NCBI GenBank assembly: GCA_040954595.2
Contig: CM082577.2
Coordinates: 16,685,903-16,749,902, forward strand
DNA from: Balanoglossus misakiensis
Lineage: Eukaryota; Animalia; Hemichordata
DNA length: 64,000 nucleotides
Reading direction: 5' to 3'
A program made the translations under genes and the position numbers. Shown in pieces: positions 24,022-45,689 of this stretch; position 1 is the stretch's first letter; each line of letters opens with the position of its first letter. The notes beneath the pieces were generated by a model. That model ran no database searches. It worked only from the letters and a program-made list of their open reading frames with translations, and had not been told where the DNA came from.

Positions 24022-25615
24022 TAGTCCTGTTTCATAAGTCAGGTCCATGACATATGTACCGACATCTGTGATTGGTCCATCTGGTAATCTTAGGTCCACT
24101 TGTGGCACGCTGATTGGAGGGACCTTATGTGTTAGGTCTTATCATTATGTATTATTCACTAGACCTTGTAGGTTAGGTCTTATTACTATGTATTATTCAC
24201 TTTACAGCTCCCTGATTGGTTAATGTGTAGGTCTGGTCCTCCAGTGTTCACTGCCTCATTATGCAGGACCTTGTAGGTTAGGTCTTATTACTATGTATTA
24301 TTCACTTTACAGCTCCCTGATTGGTTAATGTGTAGGTCTGGTCCTCCAGTGTTCACTGCCTCATTATGCAGGACCTTGTAGGTTAGGTCTTATTAATATG
24401 TATTTATTCAATTTTCAGCTCCCTGATTGGTTAGTGTGTAGGTCTCCAGTTTTCACTGCCTCGTTATGCAAAGTCTTTTGTACTTTCTGAATACAGTTGT
24501 CGTATTCTGTCTGCCATGCTGCCTGCGCGTTGTCGAAGCTCGATCCCAGTGTATAAAGAAAGGCACTCATATAATGATGGGATTTCACATTTTCCTTCAC
24601 ACTATTCATGGCATTTTATGTGATACTGTGAACTAGATACTCGAAATAAATATTGCCAGGAGAATTTGTTTATTTTATTTCCAGTGGCGGTTTGTTGAAA
24701 TGGGTTAGTGTTTTGTTACGTAATGCCTTTCAGCGCATCACTTCGTGTAACATCTGGCTGAATACGAAGTGTGTGCTATTCATTCGAGCAAACCAAAAAT
24801 ATCTTACAATAGAAATGTTTAGAATAGCATTGCATTTCTTTGGGATACCTCATTAGTTGCTTTACAGGTATGATTACTTTTATTGTACTTCTTTCACGAA
24901 GCTGCACAGTCATAGTTCTATTTTTATGAAAACAATATACGAATGTATAAACGGACAACGTGCTCCACAACATCTTCGTCAAAACAAATTTACTTTAAAA
25001 TAGTAATAACAACAATAATAAAATTGATGATGAGAAGTAGGAGGGTGATTAAAAAAATATACAACTTAGCTAAAATGCTTAGATGAGTTAATCAGATTTT
25101 CAAAGTCCACCTAAAAGATCATTTAATCTTTCCAGGGTGCGGTTTATGTTGGAGATAGTATCAGTCAGGCTATTTCTCAGAAAATCAATGAACGATCTGC
25201 GGACACCCCGAATAATGTGTTACCACAACGCTAGCCAGGAAGCACATGGGACATTTCACAATGAGGCAATGAACACTAAGGGGACCAGACTGACACATTA
25301 ACCAATCAGGGAGCTGTATGGTGAATAAATACATATTAATAAGACCTAACCTACAAGGTCCTGCATAATGAGGCAGTGAACACTGGAGGACCAGACCTAC
25401 ACATTAACCAATCAGGGAGCTGTAACGTGAATAATGCATAGTAATAAGACCTAACCTACAAGGTCTGGTGAATAATACATAGTAATAAGACCTAACACAT
25501 AAGGTCCCTCCAATCAGCGAGCCGCAAGTGGACCTTAGAGAAGCGGATAAACCAATCAGAACATGTAATACGTGTGCATAGGACCTGTGATGTAGGTCAT
25601 TTTGAAACAGGACTA
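24022..25615. mobile_element. Foldback non-autonomous DNA transposon with TAG..CTA (Academ-like) ends and long TIRs built of 105-bp units
   Basis: TAGTCCTGTTTCA ... TGAAACAGGACTA; 24022-24460 is inverted at ~25280-25615; units start at 24162, 24267, 24372. No clean TSD. Confidence 0.75.
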
Positions 25616-27201: not shown

Positions 27202-27619
27202 TGTAGTAAAGTAATACTCGCCATACGGGGGGAAAGTACTACTCGCGGTTGCACCGACCGTGTATATACTACCTACACAAAGCGGTCGATGCCTATATTA
27301 ACTATTACTAAATACTTAACAACTGTCTTAAACGCTATATATAAAGGTGAGACAGAACTATAAGTGAAAGCTTATCAGTAGCAAGGATATTACTTATGTC
27401 TTGATATAGTTCAGGTACAATTCGGTCTGGTTGGTCTTCAGCTCGTCCAAACGGCGTGCTTTCCCCAGGTCCGCCCACACTGCTGTCGGCCTCATCCATT
27501 GGTGCTGCTCCTGGCAGTCAGATCTCCGTGCTCCGCCTTCCACAGTCATGGCTGGCTGTCGCCCTGGGCAACCGACTCCGGCTGCCAGTCATCCGGGGTC
27601 CAAATGTAATTCCACTACA
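27202..27619 (-). repeat. 3' LTR of the truncated TatD-type Gypsy (copy 2)
   Basis: TGTAGT...ACTACA inverted termini, adjacent polypurine tract on minus (27620-27640), abrupt junction with the Crypton ORF. No partner LTR in the window. Confidence 0.75.
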
Positions 27620-27883
27620 CTCGTCCTTCTTTTCTTTTTTGGGGAGATCCTCCCTGGGGCTATATGTCGGGTAATGGGAAGCCTGAAGCGGTGGGGTTCC
27701 CTGGAAACGTTCGTCGGGCTGGTCCTGAAAATAAAACGATCTTGGGTGGCCTGCGGAATACTCTCTGATATTAGATTCAAGCCTGGGTGGCCGGATTGAG
27801 TTTTTTGTTATTTGACATGCATCTCCTCCGCCAGTGACGGATTCCACACTCTTGGCAGCTCGCCCCTCGCTGTTCATGTCATC

Positions 27884-29299
27884 TTAGATCCTGTACAGAC
27901 GGCGGGCGTTCTCGGCCGTCTGCGCCAGCAGCTGTCGAGTGGATGTTCCACGCAGCCTCGCCATCTCCAGTGCCACGTCTCCCAGGAAGGCTGGGGTGTT
28001 CATTCGTTGTGTCTCCCACACACGTCCGCCGGGTGATTTCGTTTCCACCAGGATTCGGTCTTCCGGGATGGCCTGCATCGCCTCTATCTGACGTTTGTCG
28101 AACTGGCGGACGGCCGCCGAAAACCCAAAATAGGTGTCCGGAAAATACCGCCGCCAGTCCCCCACGGTTTCCATGCACCCTCTAAAATCCCGGAGATGGA
28201 TTTGCTGGCGTTCATCGCAATGACGGGTTATAGTGAGCAGAGTCCAGGCTGCCGTGTGCCTGTCGTACTTATCAGCGGAGGTTCCCCGGGCGGTGACTAC
28301 CACCGGCTTCCTTCCCGGGTTCATGCAGAGCAGATCTGCAAATACTCTGTCCTGGGCTTCCCAGGTGGAGGGGTCTTCGGTTCTCTCCAGGCCGATGTCC
28401 CCAAGTGCGGCCACGTCCGGGTGCCGCAAAAGTTCCCCGACGGTCTGGCGCTGGTCACTGGTCAGATAAGGTGCCACTCGGGGGTTTATGCCGATGGCCA
28501 TTGGAAATCCTTCTTCGGCTCGGAAAACACTCGCAGACCCCCCGAGGAGTCGTATGCGGTAATCGGGAGGAACACCAACATCGTAGTCAGTGAGGTCATT
28601 TATGGTGGTGGGCGCGTCTTCCACCCTGCACTCCTCCGCGCACGCTTGAGGATGGAAACACGCATCGAAGCCCCCAGGCATTGGTGGGTCCCGCGCTACT
28701 GCTTCCGCCCTCGTCCTTTCTGGTTGCTGTGTCCAGGTTGATGATTGTCTCCGGTGAGGTCGGATTTCCCGGAACTCTTCCTGGCGAGATTGGGACACCC
28801 ACCTTAGCAGTATGCTCAGGACGCGCCAGTGGATGAGGATCGCTGGTGTGGTGGGGGAGCTCAGCCGGAACTTGTTCGGCACCTCCCATCCCTGGACAAT
28901 GCACAGGCGTTTCATCATCACCATAGACTCTGGTGAACACAAGGATTCCGAAGGGATCCGTTCAGGTCCGCCCCTGCGGATAAAGAGGTCTAGCAGGTCA
29001 GGTATTTCCTTTCCGGGACCACACAGCCAGTAAGTAAGCTTCCCTAACGCCTCCGCCACATCCCGCTCGCGGAAAACTTCCGGCTTCTCGATAAAAGGAA
29101 CTGGAAGGTGGCACTGAAAGACGTGCTTCTTCAGCTTGCGCGTGGACATCTGGCATCCCGGGAATGGACACGGAGAAGGGCCTGATGAGTAGTGTGGACC
29201 AGGGGGTGGGGGCTCCTTCGGGTCGGCCTGGCGCTCCTCCAGCGGCGTTCTGTTTGTTTGGGCGGTTCCGGCGTCGGATACCGGATAGGTGATCGACAT
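27884..29299 (-). CDS. C2H2 finger + unknown domain + TatD-fold protein with substituted active site
   Basis: 471-aa ORF: CPFPGC..LKKHVFQCH, PTTPAILIHWRVL, then DACFHP, GINP, LGDIGLE, VVTAR, LRDF, ILVETKSP, TAENARRLY. Confidence 0.85.
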   Translation of the reverse strand: MSITYPVSDAGTAQTNRTPLEERQADPKEPPPPGPHYSSGPSPCPFPGCQMSTRKLKKHVFQCHLPVPFIEKPEVFRERDVAEALGKLTYWLCGPGKEIPDLLDLFIRRGGPERIPSESLCSPESMVMMKRLCIVQGWEVPNKFRLSSPTTPAILIHWRVLSILLRWVSQSRQEEFREIRPHRRQSSTWTQQPERTRAEAVARDPPMPGGFDACFHPQACAEECRVEDAPTTINDLTDYDVGVPPDYRIRLLGGSASVFRAEEGFPMAIGINPRVAPYLTSDQRQTVGELLRHPDVAALGDIGLERTEDPSTWEAQDRVFADLLCMNPGRKPVVVTARGTSADKYDRHTAAWTLLTITRHCDERQQIHLRDFRGCMETVGDWRRYFPDTYFGFSAAVRQFDKRQIEAMQAIPEDRILVETKSPGGRVWETQRMNTPAFLGDVALEMARLRGTSTRQLLAQTAENARRLYRI

Positions 29300-29736
29300 C
29301 TGGGGCTGAGGTCTCCCCAGCGCGAATGGGATGGTCGTTCACGAGGCGACCGGGTTGGGGATCTGGACCTAGTAGGGGGGCTGAGAAATTGTGGGAGATC
29401 CCAGGGGATATCGTATTCCCCCGCCTCCAGCGTCTCCTCCAGCGCTAAAGGCCGGATCAGTGGCTGCAGTGGCATAGCTATGTCGGATGGTGCAGGCAGG
29501 TGAGCTTTGACCTTCTCCTTTCCGTAGACCCGTATGGCCTCCTCCCGTGCGATGGACATCCACCCTATGTCTCCTATGACGGCGGCTACTTGGAAATGCT
29601 CACGGAGCATCACAAACATGGTGTCTTCGTCCACGCCGAGTTGCCTCAGTCGGGGGATGACACTGATGGGGTCCAATAATTTCCCCCGGCCGCAGCGATA
29701 ACGAATATCCTCTACTTGGCGTTGTCTAGAATCCAT
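29131..29736 (-). CDS. ORF-A of the 3' cassette (unknown domain plus Arg/Ser/Pro-rich linker)
   Basis: VEDIR..GKLLDPISVI and GDIGWMSIAREEA resemble IEDVR..RRLLGPREVI and GNWGWVFTIQREA of 36267-36908. Confidence 0.6.
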   Translation of the reverse strand: MDSRQRQVEDIRYRCGRGKLLDPISVIPRLRQLGVDEDTMFVMLREHFQVAAVIGDIGWMSIAREEAIRVYGKEKVKAHLPAPSDIAMPLQPLIRPLALEETLEAGEYDIPWDLPQFLSPPTRSRSPTRSPRERPSHSRWGDLSPRCRSPIRYPTPEPPKQTERRWRSARPTRRSPHPLVHTTHQALLRVHSRDARCPRAS

Positions 29737-29997
29737 TCTGGGGGCAAAAAGAAAAGAAAGAAAATTAACGGTTAGTGGGTCCTCGTCTGTAACGAGTCAT
29801 AGCCCTACCTGATGGCAATTTCCCCTTTTCCCTGTGTTCCCTTGCTCGTCGATTCCCTCCCCCACGCAGTTCGGACAGTGAAAGGGGTCAGTCGATTTCA
29901 ATAAAAACGTACTTTACCTTACTTAACATCTCTACCTTAGCTGGTAAATAGAGGGTTTAGAAATGATGAACGAATTTTGAAAAAAAATCAACGTTAC

Positions 29998-31436: not shown

Positions 31437-31832
31437 CATTACCACCGGCCCTTTCCACGGTGGGCATAGCTTCCTACATTTCCCACGATGAGTGGCAGTG
31501 TCAAGTAGATAGACGCAATCTCCTACTTCATATGAATGAACATTGATACGCAGGTCATAGTCTTTTTTTTCATTTTCTCCTGTGTCGTCCACAGGTGTGT
31601 ACAAGCAACACTGTGTGCTTGTTGGACAGCCTCCCCCATGTCGCGTACATACTCTTCTGGAGTCTGGCCGTCTGTCTTCTCAGGAGATCCATATATCATG
31701 TCAGCTGGCTGGTTGACCTCTCGTCCCAACATAATACGGTTTGGGGTGAAACCAGTGCTTCTATTCACTGAAGAGCATAGGGCTTCTGCGATCTGTGGAA
31801 GATGTTTGTCCTACTCGCGCTGGTTTTTACCT
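31437..31832 (-). pseudogene. Gypsy integrase C-terminal fragment (same clade)
   Basis: NRSTGFTPNRIMLGREVNQPAD...GDCVYLLDTATHRGKCRKLCPPWKGP closely matches the integrase at 36817-38490. Confidence 0.85.
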
Positions 31833-32843
31833 AATAGCTTTTTCAACTGTGAGCAAATAATGTTTATGTCTACAGGATCAGTTAGCAGGTCCGCTTTGTT
31901 GATGCTTTTCGAAAAATCTTCAATAACTGAATGGAGAGCATTGAATTTCATGTCACTTATCAGACACTTGCGTTTTAATACCCTTACCAAAACTAACCCT
32001 GCATAAAGTATATTCAAAGTATACTAAAATTTCCAAATATGAGTAGCGATTAAGTACACAGTTAAGGATGTACGCGCAGAACATAAACCGGAAACACTGC
32101 GCGCCTGGTCTTTTTCCCATAAGATTACCGGTACATTGATAATCGCCAGAAAAGCAAACTTCTACTATTGTCATTTTCACGAAATTTTACACATAGCTCA
32201 GTCCAGCAAATATAAATTCATTGGTCAAATAAAATATAGGGGTCACCGCGCTCTATTTTGAGATAAATTGCGTTAAATATTTTGCCCATAGACAAAGCAT
32301 TGGTGAAAAATGCTGAGTCAGCAGATTTCTTCTATTATCGACCAAATTCATGGCTCTGTATTTCATAAACAAGCGCGGTGACCCCTATGTTTTATTGCGG
32401 ATTTTCATTATACATACAAAGGAGAATAAAAAAATCCACAATTAACCCTTTATAGCCTATATAGGTGGCCTCATAAGGGACCCCCCAGGGCCTGAATTAT
32501 TTTTAAGGAGACACTACTAAAACCTATTGTACGTTATATGTGTCACAGAATCTGTTTCTATGACAACTGCCCAAACCTAAATGGGATGTATGTAAAAATA
32601 AGATGTTACATTGTACTTAGGTGTATTGTTATGCAAATTTAGTTATCATTATAACTAAATTACACCGGTGATTATCTTCTTTCTGGCTGCTTTTTTTAAC
32701 TAAAATAATTTAAAACCGTGAATAAAAACTTATTTTACTCACCACTACATGTGTTTCTCCTGCCACTATCCTAGTCTATAGTTTCTTCCTTTTCCTAGCT
32801 AAGTCTCTACCTTCACACTTTGGATCACTGTACTGATAATCCC

Positions 32844-33789
32844 TCATGTAATGGTATCTATGGAAGCAGGGTACTGGGCACATCCTAACTTTGCATCCTC
32901 TACAGAAGTACTTTGTGTCTTTCCTGTTGATGTGTACCTGGCATTTTGATTTGTTTCTGCCAAATCTGGAGACTGCTGCAAATTCCTATCGAACCTGATG
33001 TCATTAATTGGGGCTGTGGGTTTTCTCCCTGGCCTTTTCACGAAAGAACGACCACCGATCAGTTCTTCACACAGCTTACCACGAAACTTTCGTTGAGTGA
33101 TTTTATCCTGAGGGTTTGCTTTCTTGAAAAGAATGAATGCATTCACTACAGACACCTCAAGTAGATACCAAAATATCTGTAGGTACCAGGTAAGTCCCTT
33201 CATATGACGCTTGTAGCTGCCAAGACGTTGGTCCGCCAAATCAACGCGTCCCATGTACTTATTATATCTGCCAATTACTTGGGGTCGAGGTAACTCCTGC
33301 AGTTCCCATGTGCCCCTGACCTTAACTGCCCTTGTTACAGGATCACTCTCTGCTCTGACTGGTAATGTGGTGAGAGCGCTGACTATCCTAGAGTCCTTCC
33401 AACACACAGCTTTCTGCCTGCCTTTCTGCCAAAAGATAAATTCCCCACGACTTCCACGAGTAAGACTTTTCATGACAGGACTTTTCGACTTCATTTCGAT
33501 GGGGAGGCCCTTTCGATTTTGTCTAACTGTACCACAAGCCAACATTTTCTTCTCCTCCAATTTATCAAACAAAGCAGGAGATGTGTAGTAGTTGTCACAA
33601 TACAATTCATATCCTTTGTTGTGATATGGAATTGTTAGTTTCATGACAACATTCTTGGTAACTGACGCTTCAGGAGACTGCAAGTGTGATTCTCGGCCCT
33701 GATAAACCTTCAAATTCAGGATATAGCCAGTGGTAGATTCTGCTACGTTGAACACCTTGATACCCCATTTCGTGGGTTTGTTTTTGATG
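32844..33789 (-). pseudogene. piggyBac (PGBD4-like) transposase, C-terminal half
   Basis: YIKNKPTKWGIKVF, LYCDNYYTS, CGTVRQNRKG, YNKYMGRVDLADQ; frameshifted C-terminal Cys-rich domain. Confidence 0.9.
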
Positions 33790-33793
33790 TACT

Positions 33794-33995
33794 TGTTGTA
33801 AAAGCCGATTGCTTACCTTATGGTAAAATAAAGGATACTGAGTTGTAGGTTGGATAGGTAATTTCGTAGTAGTTTCTAGGAGCTCAGGTTGAAGCGTGTT
33901 GCATGTTGCTGCACTCGTAATAGAAAAGGTCGAACTATTTCCGCCCAAGGGTTGAGTGGGGTCAGTGACGTCATGACAGATGTAGCATCACAACA
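33794..33995 (-). repeat. 3' LTR (PPT TATGGTGGGGAAGAG at 33996-34010)
   Basis: Direct repeat of 43199-43389 with about 6 substitutions and one 11-bp indel. Confidence 0.95.
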
Positions 33996-34365
33996 CTCTT
34001 CCCCACCATATTTTTGAAGGGCGTCGTCTTCTTCCCCCCAAACACCGGGGGATAATACAACATTGAACACAACAATAACAAAAATCGAAAAATAGAAGGT
34101 CCAGCTGGGCTTTACTGGGTATGCCCCACTGGTCGGCCGGTTTGTTTCTTTTGTTCCCCTTTTAGATAAAAATTCCCTCCAGCTGGGCTTTATAAGATAT
34201 GCCCCACTGGTCCATTTGCTGGATTTTTTCCTTTTGTTGAATATCAATTCCCTCTAGATACAAATTTCCCAGGTGGTTCCCGTCCTTCCCCTATATTTGG
34301 CCTTTCTGGTAAAACCCTGGTACCCCCATCCCAAACAGTAGGTTCCAAAATCCCCCTGCCTTCCT

Positions 34366-36372
34366 TTAAAACAGGAATAGGCATCTAGTGTTGTTGGCCG
34401 CGACCTCCAGCAACTCTTCTGCCGCAACCCCTCGCACCTGGGCTGCTTCCCGAGCCACCTCACCCAGAAACACAGGGGAGTTGAATCGCTGACTCCCCCG
34501 CAGGGCTAGATGTGGGGCGTCCGTCTCCAACAGGATTCGGTCCTCGGGAACTTCCCTCAGCGCTTGGGCTTGTATTCTGTCGAAGCAGGCCACGCTGGCA
34601 GAAAAGCTGAAATAGCAATTCTGGAAGGCCTGGGTCCATCTATTTAGGGTGCGTCGGTCCCCCCCCCCCCCCCCGAAGTTGTGCAGCTGGATTGGTTGGG
34701 TTGCAGGGCAGGTTTCAGACACCAGCATCAGGGCCAGGGCATGTACATCGCTGGCGTGTGGATCTCTCCTAGCGCCCCTGATGTGTAGTACGATGGGTTT
34801 GTCTTCGGGTGCTACTTCCAACAGGCATTGGAGGGCTTCCTCCTGCTGGCCCCATTCATGGACTGGTGCGGTCCTGTCCAGGCCTATCTCGCCCATAGCC
34901 GCTACCAAAGGATGGGTTACCAATCCCTTGATCTGCTGCAACAGCTCCTCTGTCATTTTCTTGGCCTTTTTGGGGTGAAGCCCGACCGCAATTTTCCACC
35001 CCGGCTCCCTTAGCAGGATCTTTGGATATTCTTCGGGGTCACAATAAATCTCCACACCTCCCACCACTTCCACTGGCACTTCTGGCTCTCGCCCTGGCGA
35101 CAATTGTAACAGTTCATGGGAAGTGGTGGCTCCTTCACTTCGGGGAGCCTGGGCTCTCATGCCGTCCGGGTGAAAATGAGCGTCTATGGCCTGGGGTAAT
35201 CCCCCGGCTGGTGACGCCACACGGGGTCGGCTAACGTCTGGACTGCCGGCGCTTGCTTGGGACATTTTTCCTCTGGGCCACTTCTTGATAGTCTCCCGTT
35301 CCTCCGGCGACAGGTCTCCAAGGAGCGTGAGGAGAACCCTCCAGTGAATCAGCACCGCTGGTGTGTTGGGCGGTGACAACCGTATCTTTTGGGGTACTTC
35401 CCATCCCATTCGGTGGCACACTCGTCTCATAATTTCTTCATCTTCCGGGAGAATTTTGGATGTCGTCGGAAAACGTCCGAGGCCATGTGTCAGGAAGTAT
35501 TGGAAAAGGGCGACGATGGGCTGTTCCTTCCTCACAAGAAGCTGGGTCAAACCCCCTAGTAAGCCGACGATTGCGTCCAGATCGGCTTTGCGAATCTCTC
35601 CCCGCATGTAGGATGGTAAGTCGCGCTTGTATACGTGCTCCTTCAGCCACTTGGAAGAATGTCCGCAATCCGGTATGGGGCAAGATGATTCTTTCCCTGG
35701 AATCGGACAGTAGGATGTTTTCCCGCGGGGTTGTGGTCGTGGTGCTGCTGGGGCTTCCGCTGCTGGAGGCTTTCCCACTGTCCCCGAAAGGCCAGATGGC
35801 CTCTCTGGGCTTGCTTTCTTGGGTGGCCTCCAAGGCTCATTCTCTGATGGCCTTTTCTCCGGTCTCTCCACCGATGCCGACACTCGGGAGTGGGAGCCTG
35901 CGGATCTCCAGCGCCGGCTCGAACTGCTTTTCCCCTTCCTGCGCTTGGTGGTGGCTGTCGTGGACGCAGGGTGGCTCGGGCTTGGTGTATACCCCGCCGG
36001 TCTTAAGATTAACCGTCTGGGCGGTTCTTCCGTTTCCTCCGTTTCTTCCATCGCCTCGGCAGCCTGCGGATGCCCCGGTTCAGCACCTGGGCTTTCCGTA
36101 GTTTGCCGAAACTCGCTGCAGGTGATGGTACGGATGATGAGCCTTTGTGCCCCGACACTGAGATTCTCGCCGAGCTCGTATGGCGATATGGGCATCTCCT
36201 CCACCTCCCTCTCTTCCGATCGGCTCACGACCATGGAGACTTCTCTCCTATAAGGACCTTCCCCGCTCAGTTGAGCCCTGTCCCCGCTCCAGAGAACCTG
36301 GGGAAACCCCTGGTCCCGCAGAGCTGGGCGGTGGACCCGATGAGCTGGGCGAACTCCACCCTCCGGATGCAA
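34366..36372 (-). CDS. Low-complexity region + C2H2-like finger + unknown domain + TatD-family metal-dependent nuclease
   Basis: IDAHFH, VGLHP, MGEIGLD, PIVLHIR, LHNF, ILLETDAP, AANNTRCLF form the full TatD motif set. True start codon uncertain. Confidence 0.9.
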   Translation of the reverse strand: MHPEGGVRPAHRVHRPALRDQGFPQVLWSGDRAQLSGEGPYRREVSMVVSRSEEREVEEMPISPYELGENLSVGAQRLIIRTITCSEFRQTTESPGAEPGHPQAAEAMEETEETEEPPRRLILRPAGYTPSPSHPASTTATTKRRKGKSSSSRRWRSAGSHSRVSASVERPEKRPSENEPWRPPKKASPERPSGLSGTVGKPPAAEAPAAPRPQPRGKTSYCPIPGKESSCPIPDCGHSSKWLKEHVYKRDLPSYMRGEIRKADLDAIVGLLGGLTQLLVRKEQPIVALFQYFLTHGLGRFPTTSKILPEDEEIMRRVCHRMGWEVPQKIRLSPPNTPAVLIHWRVLLTLLGDLSPEERETIKKWPRGKMSQASAGSPDVSRPRVASPAGGLPQAIDAHFHPDGMRAQAPRSEGATTSHELLQLSPGREPEVPVEVVGGVEIYCDPEEYPKILLREPGWKIAVGLHPKKAKKMTEELLQQIKGLVTHPLVAAMGEIGLDRTAPVHEWGQQEEALQCLLEVAPEDKPIVLHIRGARRDPHASDVHALALMLVSETCPATQPIQLHNFGGGGGDRRTLNRWTQAFQNCYFSFSASVACFDRIQAQALREVPEDRILLETDAPHLALRGSQRFNSPVFLGEVAREAAQVRGVAAEELLEVAANNTRCLFLF

Positions 36373-36908
36373 CTTCCTGGGTTCCGCTGCCGGTTTCCAG
36401 GGTGCGTCGGACGGGTAAGTCTGGTTGCGTCAGTAAGCGGATGTCCCATGTCCCACATACCCCGCTCGGAATATTCCTCCGGTATCGCCATCACCTTCTT
36501 GGGGCGTGGGGGCTGGTGGTCCTTAGCTGGGTTTATGTGCGGCATATTCTGTATGATCCAGGGGATTGGAAACATAACATCCGCTTCCCGTTGGATAGTA
36601 AACACCCACCCCCAGTTTCCCTTGGATTTGGCTACCGCATATTGGTCTAGGAGTGCCTCTTGGGCTTCTCGCTTGGGGGCCATCATGATGCCGTGGATGA
36701 CCTCTCTGGGGCCTAGGAGACGGCGTGCCTGAGTGGCCCGCCGGACATCCTCAATGTTGAGCTTGGGCATGGGTCTTGGCATATTGAATGGGGCTGGGTC
36801 TGCGGACATAAAAATGTTAGGCTTGTTGAGTGCACTGGGGGCAGAAATAGTCCCCCGTGCCTCCCTTTCCTGACTGAATTCCCACACAGGACATATGGAA
36901 CCAGTCAA
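36267..36908 (-). CDS. ORF-A of the 3' cassette, unknown function (likely start MSADP ~36809)
   Basis: Homologous by eye to 29131-29736 and in the same position after integrase. Confidence 0.6.
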   Translation of the reverse strand: MTGSICPVWEFSQEREARGTISAPSALNKPNIFMSADPAPFNMPRPMPKLNIEDVRRATQARRLLGPREVIHGIMMAPKREAQEALLDQYAVAKSKGNWGWVFTIQREADVMFPIPWIIQNMPHINPAKDHQPPRPKKVMAIPEEYSERGMWDMGHPLTDATRLTRPTHPGNRQRNPGSCIRRVEFAQLIGSTAQLCGTRGFPRFSGAGTGLN

Positions 36909-38490
36909 AACACTTGTCGCATTGGATCATTGGGCTGCCATCGTTCGGTCCCCGACAAATGCAGTACTGGTCATTCCCTGGGCTTTCGGTTTCCCCCGTG
37001 TCGTTGGCTATGTTTGCCTGGTGCCTAACGATCCACTGGGGTAAGACCCGATCCCTACATAGTTTGATCCTGTCATGGTGCACAGTCATCTCTGCCCTTT
37101 TCAACCTCACTTTGTACAGGTATGGGGAGAATTTCCCAATGATCACGGCTGGGCCCTTCCAGGGGGGACTTAGCTTGCGACATTTCCCTTTTGTGGTGGC
37201 GGTATCCAAAATGTATACACAATCCCCCACCCCATAAGCTTTGGTGTGTGTTCTCAAATCATAGTCCCTTTTCATTCGTTCCTGGGTGGCCCTTAAGGTA
37301 TTACGGGCGGTTTCATGGGCCTTGCTGATTGCTCTCTCCAATTCCCTAACATACCCCTCGGCCCTTTCCCCTTCATTGGAAAACTCATCAGTGCTGTCTC
37401 TCCCCTGCCCTGTGGTCACCCCAAACACCAGATCTGCTGGCAAGTTAAGTTCCCTTCCCAACATTAAACGGTTTGGTGTGTACCCTGTACTACGATTCAC
37501 TGATGCGCGCATTGCCCCTGCTAGCTGGGGTAGGTGTACATCCCACTCGCGCTGATTTCCAATGAAGCAACGCACTGCGTCCATGAGCGTACGGTTATTT
37601 CGTTCCGCCTGGCCATTCACGGACGGTCTATAGGGGGTCGTTCTGCATTTGTGAATACGCAACAGCTCGCAAATCGCTACAAAAAGTTGGCTTTCGAAAT
37701 TACGCCCCTGGTCGGTAAAGATCTCGAAAGGGTACCCGAAGCGCGCAAAGAATTCATTCACTGCTGCCTGGGCGGTGACCTCCGCTGTTTGTGACGGTAG
37801 TGGGATACACTCCACCCATTTTGAGAACTGATCGACCATCATCAGGACGTATTCGTTCCCCCCTTGTGTCTTGGGGAGGGGCCCGAGAAAGTCCAGATGG
37901 ACTCGCTCCATGGGAGAACCTGCATGGAAACTTTTCATTTCTGCCCTGCCATACCGGTGGGTTTTCTTGTTCTGACTACACTCTGAGCATGTGGCCACAA
38001 AATCCTTCACTTCCTCCTGCATTTTGTACCAGACGTACTTCTGTCTTATTCTGGACAAGGTCCGTTTGACACCTTGATGTCCGGCAGAGGGGATAGTGTG
38101 ATTTAAGTCTATGACCTCCTCTTTCATGTCTCGGGGGACCACAAATAATTTGTGGCCTGAGTCAATTTCCTCCCTCCATAGGACTCCATCAATCACACAG
38201 AACAATTCCCGGTTCACCCAATAATTCTTGGCGGCTGGGCTTGATAGCATAAGTTTCCCTTCTAGGGGTTCTTTCCCTGTCTCTACCCAATATAATAAAT
38301 CGCTAAGGTCTGGGTCTTTTTGTTGCATTTCCCGGAATTCGGCCATGCTTACCCCGACGATAGCGGTGCCCTCCTGCTTTTCACTAGCACGCGTTACTAC
38401 ATATGCTTTGGGCTTCCCCTGTCCTCTATCCCAACCCTGTTCAATATCAATGTGGGATTGAGGGGCTTCCAACCAATTTCCCTCATGCAC
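36817..38490 (-). CDS. Gypsy integrase with C-terminal PHD finger
   Basis: HHCC (H..GH..CSEC), HLDFLGP, TDQGRNF, AERNNR, WKGP, then [29 protein letters not shown]...YFCPQC. Confidence 0.93.
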   Translation of the reverse strand: [557 protein letters not shown]

Positions 38491-38802
38491 ATTTTGGCCC
38501 TCGTATGACTCGCCTGGGTCCCAGGGCCAGGGTGGACAGTCACACCCCTGGGGAATTGGTGCGTCCCGGCCTGGGGATAAGGCTTCCCTCGGCGGAGGTT
38601 CTGCCCCTGGTGTGTCGCTGACCGTCTCCCCCTGCCCTAGCTAAGGGGACCACATCGTCTATCTCATCGATGAAAACACTCCATCTCAAGTGGGCCTTCT
38701 CACAGTAGATACAACCCCCACAAGGAAGGTCTTGGGGGCTTATCCCATGGCTGAAATTGGAACATTGCTTGGGGTCTTGCACCCGTGAGAGTGCGTCGGC
38801 AT

Positions 38803-40335
38803 TTACGGTACATGTTTCTTCCCCTGGCGGTGCTCTACCTTCATGTCATATTGACTAAGCTCTTCAAGCCAACGAGCTAACTGTCCCTGGGGTTCCTTGA
38901 AACTAAGCAGCCAAGTCAAACTGCTGTGGTCTGTTCTTAGTAGGAAACGCTTCCCTACCAAATAATGGCGATACTGCCGGGTAAACCTAATTACGGCAAA
39001 CAGCTCTTGTCTAGTAGTGCAATACCGGCGCTGTTCAGGGGTCATGCTCACGCTGCCATACGCCACTACCCGTTCCCTACCATCCTGCACCTGAATTAAT
39101 TCTGCCCCAAGCGCATGATTTGACGCATCGGTATCTAATATGAATGGGTCTTCATCGTTGGGCAAAGTCAGTACTGGTGGCGACATTAGCGCAGTCTTAA
39201 TTTCTTCGAATGCGCGTTGCTGTTCAGGTCCCCATGCGTATGCCTGTTTCCCTGTGATTGCGTATTGGGGGGCGGCCATTTCTGCAAATCCCCTAATGAA
39301 CGAACGATGGTAATTCGCAAGCCCTAGGAAACTCTCGACTTCCCTTGTCTTTGTGGGACGGGGCCATTCTGCAATCGCGCGGATGGAGTCTGCCTCCAGC
39401 TCGATGGAATTTTGCTTTACCCTGCGCCCAAGGAAAGTCACTTCAGTGCAGATCAATTCGCATTTCCTTGGTTTTAACTTGAGCTGATAGTCACGCATGC
39501 GCTGGAAAACACCGCGCAAGTTCTGTAGATGGTGGTCAAAATCGGTCCCTAGTACCATAATGTCGTCCAAAAATGCGAGGACGACATCCCAGGTCAAACC
39601 CCGCAACACTAAATTCATTACCCGTGAGTAAGTGGCTGGGGCATTGCACAACCCAAAGGGCATTCTAGTTAACTCGAAAAGCCCGTACTTGGTGACAAAT
39701 GCAGTTTTCTTACAATCAGCGCGGTCAACCCTCACCTGCCAATAGGCGGAGTTTGCGTCTAGTTTGGAGAACCAACGGTTTCCGGACAGCGTGTCCATGC
39801 AGTCTTCGATTAACGGAAGAGGGAACACGTCCTTAGCCGTTTGGTTGTTTAACGCGCGGTAGTCTACGCACCAACGCACGCTGCCATCGCGCTTGCGGAC
39901 TAGAACAGGGGCAGATGCCCATTCCGATACGGAGGGCCGAATGACCTTTGCATCAAACATTTTCTTCAAATGCGCTTCTTCCTCGCCTGCGAAACAACGC
40001 GGGGTGCGGCGCATCTTTTGTTTGACGGGTCTCGCGTCCCCAGTGTCAATGCGGTGGCTAAGGGCGGTAAAGTTCCCAAGATCAAACTCATTGGCTGCAA
40101 ACACGTCTTGGTAATCATTCAGCAGCTCTTTGAGTTTGTCTGTCTCCCCCGGACTTAGATTTGTACATGATTTTTGGAACAGGTCCTCTAAATGGCTGGG
40201 TACGTCTGGCTTGTCAGTTTCCCTTTTCCCCAGTGAGGCCTCAACTTTCTGGACAGTGATTTCTTCCGTTGTCCCAGGGGGCCCCACTACCTCGACTTCT
40301 GATGCTGTTGCATACTTTGGGCAACTGTCCCCCAC
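38803..40335 (-). CDS. Gypsy reverse transcriptase / RNase H
   Basis: RWCVDYRALN, MPFGLCNAPAT, FLDD, FLGLANYHR, ILDTDAS, TDHSSL. Confidence 0.95.
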   Translation of the reverse strand: MGDSCPKYATASEVEVVGPPGTTEEITVQKVEASLGKRETDKPDVPSHLEDLFQKSCTNLSPGETDKLKELLNDYQDVFAANEFDLGNFTALSHRIDTGDARPVKQKMRRTPRCFAGEEEAHLKKMFDAKVIRPSVSEWASAPVLVRKRDGSVRWCVDYRALNNQTAKDVFPLPLIEDCMDTLSGNRWFSKLDANSAYWQVRVDRADCKKTAFVTKYGLFELTRMPFGLCNAPATYSRVMNLVLRGLTWDVVLAFLDDIMVLGTDFDHHLQNLRGVFQRMRDYQLKLKPRKCELICTEVTFLGRRVKQNSIELEADSIRAIAEWPRPTKTREVESFLGLANYHRSFIRGFAEMAAPQYAITGKQAYAWGPEQQRAFEEIKTALMSPPVLTLPNDEDPFILDTDASNHALGAELIQVQDGRERVVAYGSVSMTPEQRRYCTTRQELFAVIRFTRQYRHYLVGKRFLLRTDHSSLTWLLSFKEPQGQLARWLEELSQYDMKVEHRQGKKHVP

Positions 40336-41086
40336 AATTGACTGTCCTTGGCACTATCACCCGTAAATTTCCCACTGGCTCGATGATATACTTGGACAAA
40401 GGGCAATCTATCCCACAACGTACCCTTACTACTGAATTTGGGGGAATTCTAGTCTGTTTGGGCAACGTGACCTTTGCCACTTTCTTTTTTGTCCCTTCCC
40501 GACCATAGGTCATGTGTACAACTTCACCCCCAAACCGCAACTGATTTCTTCGCATATCTAGGATCACTCTCCTTGACCGCATAAAGTCTGCCCCTAGCAA
40601 CATGTCATCCCCTATCGGCGCTACATACACGTCCTCTGTGAATTTGGTCTTTCCCAACTTCAGGCGCAAGGGACCTACTTTATGGGCTTTCATTTCCATT
40701 TCCCGCCCTGCAGTTTGCATGATGGTGGTTTTGAGTACTGGGGGGCGGTTCCCAAGACGGCTATAGAGGCGGTCTGAAATGATGGGGACTTCTGCTGCCG
40801 TGTCTACTACTGCCTGTACTTTAATCCCTTCAACTAAAATAGGTACACTATACATAGACCCTGACACTAACTGACATATGGTTATGGGCTGGGTGTCTTC
40901 ACCGCTGGAGGTCTCGTTTGCTGTGGATTCATCAGTGTCCGAATTCGGGGAATCATACTCCTGTTCGTCCACCGACTCCCCCGACGAGCCGTACTGTTCG
41001 TCGGTTCGTGCATCCCTAGGGTGTAGATAGAACCCGTGCCCTTGCAATGTATTGTCAGTGTGGGTATCTAAAGTGGCCTGACACAC
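40241..41086 (-). CDS. Gypsy aspartic protease region
   Basis: AVVDTAAEV and MLLGADFM. Confidence 0.85.
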   Translation of the reverse strand: MCQATLDTHTDNTLQGHGFYLHPRDARTDEQYGSSGESVDEQEYDSPNSDTDESTANETSSGEDTQPITICQLVSGSMYSVPILVEGIKVQAVVDTAAEVPIISDRLYSRLGNRPPVLKTTIMQTAGREMEMKAHKVGPLRLKLGKTKFTEDVYVAPIGDDMLLGADFMRSRRVILDMRRNQLRFGGEVVHMTYGREGTKKKVAKVTLPKQTRIPPNSVVRVRCGIDCPLSKYIIEPVGNLRVIVPRTVNCGGQLPKVCNSIRSRGSGAPWDNGRNHCPES

Positions 41087-41916
41087 TGACCCCCCATTTG
41101 GTCTATGGCTTCTTCCATGGAGGATACACGTTGGTTAGCAACTGAAAGCCCTGCCTCGCGATCGGCGCATCCCTGACAAAACTTCATTATCGCCTGACGG
41201 TCCATAGCGCGCTCCGTCAGTTCAGGGAAAGCGTTTGCCGCGAGGGATAGGAGTCGATCGGCCCATTTTTCGAGTGACTCCCCTTCTTTCTGATGGGACT
41301 GCTGAAATCTCATCTGCACGGTTTCTTGTAGTTCTTGGCGCCCGAAACGCTTTTCAAGCTTACTAATCAGCCGCTGGTAGCTGACATTCCGCTCGCGCCT
41401 GAGTAATGTTGAGTGAAATTCACTGGCGTCGCCGTCTAAGCAAAAACACAAGCAACATTTGCGTTCGCTCTCTGTCCAACCCTGGGCATCCGCGTAGCTG
41501 GTGAATTTATCGAAAAACACGCTCCACTTTCTCTCCCCAGTGTAAACTAACGTTTTGGGCGTATTAAACATCCTAGAGCCGAAGGCGGGCCCTTCCCTAC
41601 CCCCACCTTGCCTCATGCCCGTGAAGGACGTTTCACCATAAGGGTGGCTTGGCTGCACATTCCCATACGTCGGAGTCCAGGTGACATTGGATGGGGCGTA
41701 TGGGCTAGGACTGCTTTCCGCTTGAGAGGGTGGGCCATAGTACGTGGGATAGGGGATCCCCGATACTGGAGGGGCGCCACCACGGTTTTCGGTGGGAAAT
41801 CGCCAATCCCCGCGTTCGTAAGGGCTGGCTGCTGGGAGCGGTGTGGACCCCATCGGATATGGTGGCGGTGGGGTAAAATACCTTGGGAAGTTGTCTGGTG
41901 GATACGGTGGAGACAC
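41068..41916 (-). CDS. Gag (Pro/Tyr-rich region and capsid-like domain)
   Basis: YTGERKWSVFFDKF..GW..L..LDGDA..LEKRFG..F.Q.HQKEGESLEKWADRL. Confidence 0.85.
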   Translation of the reverse strand: MSPPYPPDNFPRYFTPPPPYPMGSTPLPAASPYERGDWRFPTENRGGAPPVSGIPYPTYYGPPSQAESSPSPYAPSNVTWTPTYGNVQPSHPYGETSFTGMRQGGGREGPAFGSRMFNTPKTLVYTGERKWSVFFDKFTSYADAQGWTESERKCCLCFCLDGDASEFHSTLLRRERNVSYQRLISKLEKRFGRQELQETVQMRFQQSHQKEGESLEKWADRLLSLAANAFPELTERAMDRQAIMKFCQGCADREAGLSVANQRVSSMEEAIDQMGGQCVRPL

Positions 41917-42011
41917 CCCAACCTGGTTCCCTGGGTAACGGCTCTGCTCTGTTGTGTGAAAATTATCCCTGTCTCGGGGTGCCCCATAATTTGGTGTTTG
42001 ACCCCTGGGAA

Positions 42012-42677
42012 TTATTGGCTCATGTTCTCCCCTTCCCCTTCCTTTGGGTCTGACCCTTCATGGCCATTATGTGAAAAACGGACCCTACGCTGCAAAGCAC
42101 TTCTGGGTTGGGTTCCAGGACCCCCCTCCCCATAACTGGCTCTACTTGATCCCCTGGGGTACTCGCTTGCTGTGGAAGGGTAACCCCCACTATCCAATTC
42201 TTGACGTTGGCCAATTTTCTCCCTTCCCTCGGGAAATGGGGTTGTCCTGGGCCATGTACTATTCCCCCTTCCATACTCCAGTGATAACTGATCTATTTTG
42301 CTAGCCAGCTCTGAAAGTGGGATTTCCGGTGGCCCCTGAATTTTCCCTGCTTTGCGTGCATTTCTGCGGGACGGTGTCTGCTGGTCCTCATCACTACTGC
42401 TGCTGTAGGTATTTGAGTGGGTCAGGGCTGGAGGAAACTCAGCTTCCCTGATGTCATAGGACACCAATTCGTGAAAGTCAAGTGTGGGCCTGAAACGGGG
42501 GTTTTCCCCTAGGATTTCTTTTGAGACCCTCCCATATCTACTTCTGGCTCTCAAAATTGCCTTTGCCACTTTCTTTCCTACCCCAGGCAAGGTCTTAAGG
42601 GTCATGAAGTCACACGTATTAATATAGACTGGACCTTTGCAGGCCATCGTGACGTGGTCTATTGGCCCCTTAAACAA
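42012..42677 (-). CDS. Gag N-terminal ORF with helix-hairpin-helix motif
   Basis: YINTCDFMTLKTLPGVGKKVAKAILRARSRYG fits a ComEA-type HhH pattern. Confidence 0.75.
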   Translation of the reverse strand: MFKGPIDHVTMACKGPVYINTCDFMTLKTLPGVGKKVAKAILRARSRYGRVSKEILGENPRFRPTLDFHELVSYDIREAEFPPALTHSNTYSSSSDEDQQTPSRRNARKAGKIQGPPEIPLSELASKIDQLSLEYGRGNSTWPRTTPFPEGREKIGQRQELDSGGYPSTASEYPRGSSRASYGEGGPGTQPRSALQRRVRFSHNGHEGSDPKEGEGENMSQ

Positions 42678-43183
42678 ACTAATAATTAACTACACACTCG
42701 ACACAACACGTAGGATTTACACGAGTGAACTCTTTTATTAACAGAAATAATCACCACACACAAAAACTCACTCCCACACAAAAGAAACTTGAATGCTCGC
42801 TAAAGAAAAGTTCTGCGCATGCGCCGAACGCCGCACCCCAAACACGTTTTTCGTAATGAGGACCGGACCCCTCTAGCAATAGAAAGGGACCCTATTCCGC
42901 CCACGCTGCTTTGGGAAAAAACGCAGAAAATTTGTTACAACCGCCTCCCAAACCCCGGTACCTACCCAGCACCGACTCTAAACTTTCCTCAAAAAATCCC
43001 CGCGGTCCCTGAGAGTTTGCCCAGTGTTTTCCTGCCCCGGCTATCCCCGATTTCCCGTTTTTTCCTAGCCCAGAAAAAAACCCACGTCTCACCCGGACGC
43101 AATCGCTGAATTCCGGCCACAAAAACACCACTCTCCCCCGCTTATCACAGAAAACCCGTTTCCCCGCACAAAGTAAGAACACA

Positions 43184-43197
43184 GGCTCGCAGCGCCA
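43184..43197 (-). promoter_or_regulatory. Primer-binding site TGGCGCTGCGAGC (tRNA-Ser-like)
   Basis: Starts with TGG 1 nt after the 5' LTR; complementary to a tRNA end ...GCUCGCAGCGCCA. tRNA identity is recalled, not searched. Confidence 0.8.
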
Positions 43198-43198
43198 A

Positions 43199-43389
43199 TG
43201 TTGTAAAAGCCGATTGCTTACCTTATGGTAAAATAAAGGATACTGAGTTGTAGGTTGGATAGGTAGTTTCTAGGAGCTCAGGTTGAAGCGTGTTGCTTGT
43301 TGCTGCACTCGTAATAGAAAAGGTCAAACTATTTCCGCCCAAGGGGTGAGTGGGGTCGGTGACGTCATGACAGATGTAGATTCACAACA
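43199..43389 (-). repeat. 5' LTR
   Basis: Direct repeat of 33794-33995. Confidence 0.95.
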
Positions 43390-43393
43390 TACT

Positions 43394-44194
43394 GTTTAAT
43401 TCCTAACCTGCCTTTGTACTGATCATGCTTTCATCTAAAGCTAGCTGTCTCTCAGGAGTATAAGCTTCTCTAAACTTCCTGACAACTGCATCGAGTACGG
43501 GCTTTATCTTCTGTAGTTTGTCAAAGTTAGGGTCACTTCGATCGGTGGGTAGGGACTCGTTGTCAACAAAGTGTAGATATCGCAGAATTTGACAGTAAAG
43601 GTCGCGGGGCATGTGTTTTCCAAAAGCTGGGGTCTGCGTTAGCCAATATTCTGACCAATACTCCTTAAAAGATCCTTTCTTATCGACCAAACCCATCGTT
43701 AAAGTGAGACCTAAAAATACCTCCAAATGATCGACAGTTATGGCTTCCCATGAAGACTTCCGGTTGTTTGGATCGCGACGACATTGATCAGCATAGCGGT
43801 TAGTTTCCGTTACTATCTCTGCCACCAGTTCCGGAGTAAAAAACCACCCAAACATATCTTTCGCTGATTTATCATTGAAATCGTAATTTATTCCTGAATC
43901 TTCGTTAAATTCAAAGTCGTCAACTTCAGTTGTGTCACGCGACCACTCAACCGTTTCGTCATCACTACTACTACTATCGGTAGTATTACCTTCGATACTG
44001 CTGTCACTGTCGGACGAAAAATATATCTCGGCTTCATCGTCAGAGTTCCGCCTAATCAGCCTAGCTAACGGTAAATCATCCTCAATGTCAGACTCCGTAT
44101 ATCCTTCAAATTCGGACTTGGAATCAGACGAAAAACAAAAAATATCGGCAATCCTGTTTCCCAGCGCAATGTCATCGTTGTCGCCGGACGCCAT
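43394..44194 (-). pseudogene. piggyBac transposase, N-terminal half
   Basis: IVTETNRYA, ILRYLHFVDN, DKLQKIKPV, LALDESMI. Joins the C-half as KGRLGIKQ-YIKNKP after Gypsy removal and one frameshift. Confidence 0.9.
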
Positions 44195-45689
44195 TTTTAA
44201 AGTTTCATTCATGAAAACTTGGATGAACTTTGGATTCTGACCGCTGACCTGCAGCTGTTCCGGGCGTGAATAGTGATGTACATAATGAATAATGTTTTTG
44301 CCGCCAATCTCTAGACAATTGAATAAGTTAGACCCCCCTATAGGGAATGATGACATCATTACATGAGTCAAAGGTCGATTGCATATATATACGCCTTTGT
44401 GCGCCTGCCGGCAACAAAGGGAGTCTGAAAGGCGGGGCGCCCTCAGGAGCCTACCGGCCGCAAAGGGTTAAAAAAAAATGACAATACTTTCAATTTTACT
44501 GAACGTGCATCCTTAAAGATTGAGAGACCTGCACCAGGATTTGTCAGTTATTCTGTCTGTTTATTCGTATGACCAGACTCATTACCACCTGATATCTTTT
44601 GTTTACTCTCAGTGTTTACCAAGTCCAGCATCTTACAATGCAGATAGTTTCCCAACCGTCTTTTCTAGTAACCGTGTCTAATAGCTGTTTCAACTGTGAG
44701 CAAATAATCTTCTATGTCTTCAGGATCAGTAAGCGAGTCTTATTTGTTGATGCTTTCCAAGAAATCGTCAATAACTGAGCAATTAAGAAAACAAAATTAT
44801 GGTAAAAATATCTAGGTGGTAATTTAATTATCCTCACACCATTAAAAGCACAGTATTCTTTGGTGTACCAGCAAACAGTCAAATACTTAAATGCGATAGA
44901 GGTTTAAATATGGGGAGTTTTGTTATAATCTATTGAAGAATAAAGTGTGTGTGTATGATTGTCTATATGGTATTTCATAATATATAATTTTAAGATATCC
45001 GACTTGGTGGTGTGCGTGTATGCGTGTATGTATACCGTTCTGGCTTCTTCCTGACGCCACTCTCCTAGTTTGACCTTGCAAAAGGAAATTAATTTTGTCA
45101 AAATTCTCATGTTGCCCACAAGTTCGGGTTAAGTCTCTTTCAGCATATCCTGTGATCAGAATTAAATGTAAAACAATCACATTGTATAAAACTTTCTTCA
45201 TTTACTAATTTTAGATGATATTTCACACCATGCTCTGTTACCAAAAATATTTGTGAAAAATAAGAAATGCCAACATGAAATGTTCAGATAAAGACCATAG
45301 CCTTTAGCTCCGGTGTTTGAATTTAAGTGAAGACTTCATGAGAGGTGATATAATTGTTCTTCTTGTCAGCCGTATGTCATATGGATTGTGTGTTGCCGAT
45401 GTTGCGCTGTGGAAAACAGTAAGGATGATGTTTAACAGGATAGTGGAAGTGTGCTTTTCTTGCAAAAGGAAGGTAGGGTGTAAATGTCAGATGTGGTTGA
45501 ATGACAGGCGAGTATGAGGAAAATACAGGGGGCATGTAATTAGTCTGAGAATTGCGAAGCAATATTGTACGGCTGCACGAGGTGTAAATTGATGAAAAAA
45601 GTGTTACAGTGTCAATATCTCTAATAATTTGGTGCATAGGTAAATAATACCGATAATATGTTAGAGGTAAAGTCACAGGTAATGTCCCT

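What the first reader, a model, noticed from the sequence alone, without database searches (positions are those of the whole stretch)
33794..43389. Gypsy LTR retrotransposon carrying a TatD nuclease cassette in the env position
Seen: between the integrase stop and the PPT/3' LTR of a TSD-bounded element lies a same-strand, intronless ORF with the full TatD motif set (DAHFH, GLHP, GEIGLD, LHIR, LHNF, ETDAP). A diverged second element (27202-29898) with an unrelated-looking LTR has the same cassette in the same place, so it is an inherited lineage feature and not a one-off capture. Known: TatD proteins are TIM-barrel metal-dependent 3'-5' exonucleases/AP endonucleases, and TatD is not a standard LTR-retrotransposon domain that I know of. 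Inference: it may process or proofread cDNA, clear RT intermediates that trigger host sensing, or degrade competing nucleic acids.
Basis: partly seen in the sequence, partly recalled or inferred. Interest (0 to 1): 0.92.

Follow-up and report, generated by a model that had tools for sequence, protein, structure and literature searches.

The report
Gypsy retrotransposons carrying a TatD nuclease
A jumping gene in this animal genome carries, where a viral envelope gene would normally sit, a gene for a TatD-type nuclease that related jumping genes have inherited and kept under selection, and that likely serves the element by cutting RNA.

Summary
Confirmed and extended. 33794-43389 is a decayed, TSD-bounded Gypsy element inside a piggyBac transposon.

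It is a lineage trait. Named relatives come from hemichordates, echinoderms, molluscs and brachiopods. In one other assembly, 15 of 21 family loci directly follow a Gypsy integrase, integrase and TatD trees agree, and dN/dS is about 0.14. The domain groups with host TATDN2, an RNase acting on R-loops, so RNA is the likelier substrate. A splice-acceptor-like site precedes the start codon, as expected for env.

The second copy is 5'-truncated, has one LTR and has lost 5 of 6 ligands. No activity or expression was shown. My literature searches found no TatD ORF3; the nearest precedent is the rotifer DEDDy-exonuclease ORF3. This scan earlier noted a mostly inactive TatD-fold ORF3 in flatworm Gypsy elements. 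Repbase, Dfam and GyDB could not be checked.

The parts
43199..43389 (-). 5' LTR of element 1 (191 bp, TG...CA)
43185..43197 (-). PBS-like motif just inside the 5' LTR (tRNA not identified)
41068..42689 (-). gag in two frames: N-terminal helix-hairpin-helix (HHH_3) and PNMA/Retrotrans_gag
40241..41134 (-). aspartyl protease (own frame)
38803..40353 (-). reverse transcriptase and RNase H, catalytic motifs present
36817..38640 (-). integrase with C-terminal PHD finger (36820-36966)
36800..36825 (-). splice-acceptor-like site before the ORF3 start (predicted)
36267..36782 (-). ORF3 N-terminal domain (no Pfam match), in a different frame from the rest in this copy
34366..36429 (-). ORF3 main frame: linker with basic run (35929-35946), C2H2-like finger and helical HWR domain (~35280-35682; fourth zinc ligand absent in this copy), class II TatD domain (34369-35184) with six metal ligands
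33996..34007 (-). polypurine tract
33794..33995 (-). 3' LTR of element 1 (202 bp); 4-bp TSD at 33790-33793 and 43390-43393
32446..44467 (-). piggyBac-type transposon (TTAA-flanked) whose transposase is split by element 1
27884..29898 (-). element 2, 5'-truncated: PHD-tail-like remnant, acceptor-like site (29738), ORF3 N-part (29131-29736) and zinc finger-helical-TatD part (27884-29338) with 5 of 6 ligands changed
27202..27645 (-). element 2 PPT (27620-27645) and single LTR (27202-27619, 6-bp inverted ends)

Best explanation
This is a Gypsy LTR retrotransposon whose lineage carries a conserved third gene built on a TATDN2-related TatD domain, which likely acts as a two-metal RNase that strips RNA from RNA:DNA hybrids made by the element. 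Shown: the anatomy, inheritance together with integrase, purifying selection, intact metal ligands in most copies, and grouping with TATDN2. Inferred steps: (1) an ancestor captured a TATDN2-like domain; (2) ORF3 is made from a spliced subgenomic mRNA, separately from Gag-Pol, so it need not be packaged; (3) the basic, Arg/Ser-rich linker and zinc-finger-helical domain bring it to the nucleus and onto nucleic acid; (4) the TatD domain removes RNA from R-loops at element loci, and possibly RNA left on cDNA, which would sustain transcription or integration. The window copy itself is decayed, with frameshifts in gag, pol and ORF3.
For: Pfam match and fold. Six ligands are intact in 121 of 139 aligned sequences covering them and in 20 of 20 complete G001 loci. 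15 of 21 family loci in G001 directly follow an integrase on the same strand. The window element and 10 G001 elements form one integrase clade (100/99), all with ORF3. Integrase and TatD trees share 5 of 9 splits; shuffles reached that in 1 of 5000; Mantel r 0.78, or 0.58 without C1247. TatD dN/dS is 0.14-0.17 in the 4 pairs computed. Retroelement and TATDN2-like domains form one side of a 100/99 branch against 25 bacterial rows, and two motifs are shared with TATDN2-like proteins (66 and 73 of 75) but occur in 0 of 83 bacterial TatDs. An acceptor-like site precedes 10 of 15 ORF3 starts against 199 of 1828 control ATGs. RNase H motifs are present, so ORF3 is not a replacement for it. Human TATDN2 is an RNA 3' exo/endonuclease on hairpins and R-loops (PMC10711561).
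Against: No activity, substrate, localisation or transcript was shown. The family is sister to TATDN2, not nested in it, and has long branches, so its specificity may have changed. Other class II TatDs (TATDN3, YcfH) are ssDNA exonucleases and AP endonucleases (PMC10085689). 11 of 139 sequences have lost two or more ligands, element 2 among them. Genomic context comes from this window and one other assembly only, and LTR pairs could not be shown in that assembly's collapsed contigs. 4 of 21 loci have no pol match upstream; one of them (C889) has 921 bp of room. The acceptor score and the start codons were my own ad hoc choices. No eukaryotic TATDN1 or TATDN3 was in the tree.
Confidence: 0.45

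Rival explanations
1. ORF3 is a DNA-processing enzyme for the element's cDNA (3'-5' ssDNA exonuclease or AP endonuclease) that trims ends or repairs damaged cDNA before integration.
For: Most characterised TatDs, including class II TATDN3 and YcfH, have these activities (PMC10085689). The best solved-structure matches are YcfH proteins. Gag in this lineage often has a DNA-binding HhH motif.
Against: Tree and motifs point to TATDN2. TATDN3 and TATDN1 score only 60 and 56 bits, against a median of 159 for TATDN2-like proteins. ORF3 is not fused to Pol.
Confidence: 0.2
2. ORF3 is a counter-defence nuclease that degrades silencing RNAs or their hairpin precursors, or nucleic acids sensed by innate immunity.
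For: TATDN2 also cuts hairpin RNA. A separately expressed accessory gene with a variable linker fits a host-interaction role. A silencing-related role was raised for rotifer DEDDy ORF3s (PMC5408684).
Against: The domain shows strong purifying selection with no sign of rapid change in the pairs tested. There are no small-RNA data.
Confidence: 0.2
3. The selected function is binding (scaffold or decoy), and catalysis is dispensable.
For: Element 2 and 10 other sequences keep long open frames while lacking two or more ligands. Earlier scan notes report mostly inactive TatD folds in flatworm ORF3s (unchecked).
Against: 121 of 139 sequences, and 20 of 20 in G001, keep all six ligands despite only about 30-40% identity.
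Confidence: 0.1
4. ORF3 is a neutral passenger, a retrocopy of a host gene, or a separate nested mobile unit.
For: The window copy is decayed, and context is unseen for most relatives.
Against: Fixed position, tree congruence, dN/dS of about 0.14, monophyly and spread over four phyla.
Confidence: 0.03

Closest known systems
Non-env enzymatic ORF3s of bdelloid rotifer Juno/Vesta LTR retrotransposons (DEDDy 3'-5' exonuclease, GDSL esterase; PMC5408684)
   Same: A nuclease ORF in the env position of a Gypsy-like element, catalytic residues intact, function untested (abstract and passages).
   Different: Different fold (TatD TIM barrel versus DEDD); 'TatD' occurs 0 times in that paper's main text. 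This ORF3 is multi-domain (about 500-1100 aa), tracks the integrase tree, shows purifying selection and has relatives in four phyla.
Host TATDN2 (class II TatD; PMC10711561, PMC10085689)
   Same: HxH class II site, shared CDP and HxHCF motifs, long N-terminal extension; nearest cellular clade sampled.
   Different: A separate monophyletic sister group with its own C2H2-helical and N-terminal domains, encoded in retrotransposons; substrate untested.
env genes of errantiviruses and other Gypsy elements
   Same: Third ORF between pol and the PPT, with a predicted splice acceptor (spliced env expression is recalled, not from a call).
   Different: No env homology; no hydrophobic segment in the window ORFs; a soluble enzyme fold.
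Other enzyme cargo in LTR elements (DAM/DNMT methyltransferases; bioRxiv 10.64898/2026.05.21.726589)
   Same: Capture of a nucleic-acid enzyme by Gypsy-like elements (passages).
   Different: Methyltransferases rather than a nuclease; 'TatD' occurs 0 times in the main text.

Membership tests
Ty3/Gypsy LTR retrotransposon | Paired LTRs with TG...CA ends, TSD, PPT and PBS | tested here: met
   Element 1. Element 2 has only one LTR and a PPT.
Ty3/Gypsy LTR retrotransposon | gag followed by PR-RT-RH-IN order | tested here: met
Named Gypsy clade (MolGy, CsRn1, Mag and others) | RT/RNase H placement among reference elements | not tested
   No reference sequences available; PMC6238403 passages only.
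TatD family, class II | PF01026 above cut-off and TIM-barrel fold | tested here: met
   111.6 bits versus 27; model pLDDT 91.6, Foldseek E 1e-14 to YcfH
TatD family, class II | HxH motif plus E, H, H, D ligands (element 1) | tested here: met
   class definition in PMC10085689
TatD family, class II | HxH motif plus E, H, H, D ligands (element 2) | tested here: not met
   5 of 6 changed
TatD family, class II | Metal-dependent nuclease activity | not testable with these tools
   needs biochemistry
TATDN2 subfamily | Groups with TATDN2 apart from bacterial TatDs | tested here: met
   100/99 branch; eukaryotic TATDN1/3 compared by profile score only
TATDN2 subfamily | Nested among host TATDN2 orthologues | tested here: not met
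   sister clades, 99/96 and 94/83
TATDN2 subfamily | RNA-specific cleavage of R-loops and hairpins | not testable with these tools
   needs biochemistry
env gene | Transmembrane fusion glycoprotein | tested here: not met
   max 19-aa hydropathy 1.21 in the window ORFs; 18 of 20 G001 ORFs under 1.8; no env Pfam match
env gene | Spliced subgenomic mRNA | tested here: inconclusive
   acceptor-like sites enriched; no transcript evidence
Rotifer DEDDy ORF3 | DEDD exonuclease fold | tested here: not met
   TatD fold

The most novel reading that the evidence does not exclude
An ancient Gypsy lineage spread across protostome and deuterostome marine invertebrates captured a TATDN2-type R-loop RNase and expresses it like env as a dedicated accessory protein: a transposon-encoded R-loop resolvase that manages its own RNA:DNA hybrids or defeats hybrid-guided silencing. 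It is packaged with an HhH-Gag and a PHD-integrase as a chromatin toolkit.
Probability: 0.35. Interest if true: 0.88.

Novelty: new variant of a known kind. Interest (0 to 1): 0.72.

Why it matters
LTR retrotransposons have few known enzymatic accessory genes, and the rotifer exonuclease ORF3 remains untested. Here a different nuclease fold fills the same slot, is inherited with integrase, is under selection and has relatives in four phyla. That gives a testable handle on what such cargo does, with natural active and inactive versions to compare. It also suggests that many 'uncharacterized' or 'TatD' gene models in mollusc, echinoderm and hemichordate genomes, and some 'bacterial' TatDs in MAGs, are retrotransposon genes.

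Tried and rejected
No genome is held for the window, so copies could not be counted there.

The N-domain-confirmed viral scan found none. The trimmed alignment gave no usable pattern.

The zinc-finger-helical domain has no Atlas feature hit and no clear fold match (best Z 3.3); this is inconclusive. BFVD gave one match under E 0.001, a giant-virus protein.

No RNA holder was listed. DNA contigs of one sample show many 80-99% alike relatives of both elements and some internally deleted forms; depth was not used as copy number.

TatD as a replacement for RNase H was rejected: the motifs are present in the window and, by strict pattern, in 5-7 of 7 G001 pols. Env identity was rejected. dN/dS was obtained for 4 of 10 planned pairs because the script stopped. 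My PBS pattern found nothing in 9 G001 contigs. No complex prediction was run, since no binding is claimed.
Full report
OBSERVATION. The window reads as an animal genome; no assembly is held. Element 1 lies on the minus strand between LTRs at 43199-43389 and 33794-33995, which differ by 6 of 191 aligned bases and one 11-nt gap. It has a 4-bp TSD, a PPT and a PBS-like motif. Pfam finds HhH plus gag, protease, RT-RNase H and integrase plus PHD, in five separate open frames, so this copy is decayed. It splits a piggyBac transposase. The ORF at 34366-36429 matches TatD (E 5e-32) with the quoted motifs. An AlphaFold model of its last 448 residues (pLDDT 91.6) matches YcfH/TatD structures.

WHAT ORF3 IS. 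The gene begins near 36782 in another frame; that ~100-aa domain matches the N-termini of related single-ORF proteins. It is followed by an Arg/Ser/Pro-rich linker, a C2H2-like finger joined to a helical 'HWR' domain with no clear structural match, and TatD. A full HMMER scan gave 203 clusters at 50% identity with E up to 1e-30. Among 161 aligned sequences (both window ORFs included), 121 of the 139 covering all six ligands keep them and 11 have lost two or more. 64 of 66 long hits had TatD as their only Pfam family. Named members come from Ptychodera, Diadema, Lingula, Haliotis, Ostrea, Saccostrea, Pinctada, Pecten, Argopecten, Ruditapes and Mytilus; their genomic context was not seen.

SECOND COPY. 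27202-~29898 is a repeat whose edges match depth steps in DNA contigs. It holds the same two-part ORF3 (34% identity), a PPT and one LTR, and begins at a short PHD-tail-like motif (weak on its own). It has no 5' LTR, and 5 of 6 ligands are changed. It supports 'same cassette, same place' only in part, and it looks inactive as an enzyme.

LINEAGE TEST. One relative lay on a contig of a bacterial MAG that reads gag - 1425-aa pol with PHD - ORF3. That assembly (G001) holds 140 integrase matches and 24 TatD matches. Two of these I take as bacterial from their score and length (not fetched); the rest make 21 family loci. Of the 21, 15 have an integrase or PHD tail directly upstream on the same strand, 2 have other gag/pol pieces, and 4 have no pol match. 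Three of those four have 0-401 bp upstream and one has 921 bp. All 20 complete loci keep the six ligands. LTR pairs cannot be shown there because the contigs are collapsed or circularly permuted, but in two of them gag restarts 0.8-1.5 kb after ORF3.

In an integrase tree of 30 rows (window, 11 TatD-bearing, 18 top-ranked TatD-negative; 3 short ones skipped), the window and 10 elements form a 100/99 clade, all with ORF3. One further TatD element sits in another clade, so the label needs two changes. For 12 elements, integrase and TatD trees share 5 of 9 splits (shuffled mean 0.31; 1 of 5000 as high), with Mantel r 0.78, or 0.58 without the outlier. TatD dN/dS was 0.139, 0.139, 0.155 and 0.166 in the 4 of 10 planned pairs that were computed.

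ORIGIN. In a 67-row subsample tree the retroelement domains are monophyletic (99/96) and, with TATDN2-like host proteins, form one side of a 100/99 branch against 25 bacterial rows that include class I (similar). The CDP-type motif occurs in 143 of 165 family proteins, 66 of 75 TATDN2-like and 0 of 83 bacterial; HxHCF in 105 of 165, 73 of 75 and 0 of 83. With a family profile, TATDN2-like proteins score a median 159 bits and the best-matching bacterial ones 117; solved YcfH scores 119, TATDN3 60 and TATDN1 56. Caveats: the TATDN2-like set was collected with one fish query, and eukaryotic TATDN1/3 were not in the tree.

EXPRESSION. A pyrimidine tract plus YAG lies within 45 nt upstream of 10 of 15 ORF3 start codons, against 199 of 1828 other ATGs (rank test p 6e-7). 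The score and starts were my choice and no transcript was seen, so splicing is predicted only. The window ORFs have no hydrophobic segment.

MECHANISM. Human TATDN2 is nuclear and degrades RNA in hairpins and R-loops but not R-loop DNA (PMC10711561: abstract and one results section). TATDN1, TATDN3 and the E. coli paralogues are ssDNA exonucleases and AP endonucleases (PMC10085689: passages; PMC12709183: passages). Given the TATDN2 affinity, predicted separate expression and intact RNase H, I put 0.45 on removal of RNA from element-derived hybrids, 0.2 on cDNA processing, 0.2 on counter-defence, 0.1 on binding only and 0.03 on passenger. That ORF3 is an inherited, selected gene of this lineage is near certain; its substrate and purpose are inferred.

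PRIOR WORK. Full-text searches for TatD with retrotransposon (21 papers), gypsy (3), transposable element + captured (4) and LTR + integrase (1), TATDN2 + retrotransposon (9) and an R-loop/accessory-protein query (4) listed nothing on this by title or abstract start. Term look-ups found TatD 0 times in PMC5408684, PMC13524379, PMC6431247, PMC8556966 and bioRxiv 10.64898/2026.05.21.726589. PMC6238403 has no 'nuclease' or 'PHD' (TatD itself not looked up there), and PMC6962438 names TATDN2 only in a figure legend. No supplements were read, and Repbase, Dfam and GyDB are not searchable here. The nearest precedent is the rotifer DEDDy exonuclease ORF3, a lead taken from earlier scan notes that also report a J-domain/TatD-fold ORF3 in flatworm Gypsy elements (that claim unchecked; sequence look-ups found no look-alikes).

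VERDICT. A real, apparently undescribed variant of the 'enzyme in the env slot' theme, with good evolutionary support and an untested mechanism. Interest 0.72.

Noticed in passing
window 32446-44467: Three-level nesting: the Gypsy element splits a piggyBac transposase (Pfam positions 2-138 and 143-349), and the piggyBac sits in a high-copy repeat whose empty site is seen in contigs.
   Followed up: partly
window 31437-31825 (-): A separate frameshifted integrase fragment, 51-67% identical to element 1's, lies 1.5 kb upstream of element 2; its relation to element 2 is unclear.
   Followed up: partly
window 42015-42689 and 36820-36966: HhH motif at the Gag N-terminus and PHD finger at the integrase C-terminus. 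A PHD pattern was found in 13 of 14 TatD-bearing and 0 of 16 TatD-negative G001 elements; HhH in 2 of 6 Gags scanned.
   Followed up: partly
G001 (L098 and others): A bacterial MAG titled Sedimenticola sp. holds 140 Gypsy-integrase matches; several of its NCBI 'TatD family hydrolase' entries are retrotransposon ORF3s, so the bin evidently contains animal DNA.
   Followed up: yes
L142, L126, L143, L144: A second, divergent TatD ORF3 type (about 500-590 aa); in L142 it follows a PHD-less integrase from another clade. This means either an early capture with losses or a second transfer.
   Followed up: partly
L155:6672-7589, L161:247-1386, L159:3470-5110, L151:5306-6055, L150:553-1362: Neighbouring Gypsy clades carry other extra ORFs; two have weak C2H2 matches and three have no Pfam match.
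   Followed up: no
L098:8209-11442; L132; L139; window elements 1 and 2: ORF3 is often split between the N-terminal domain and the rest (an in-frame stop in L098, frame changes elsewhere), while it is one frame in 9 G001 contigs; decay or recoding is unresolved.
   Followed up: no
window 34660-34675: A long homopolymer gives three extra glycines seen in 1 of 161 aligned sequences; slippage or a sequencing error.
   Followed up: no
P0226-P0304: Many short TATDN2-like proteins, including a coral one, carry a CCHC zinc knuckle; ticks have several TATDN2-like paralogues.
   Followed up: no
window 24069-25558: A 1.5-kb element with long inverted arms built of 105-bp repeats, foldback/MITE-like.
   Followed up: no
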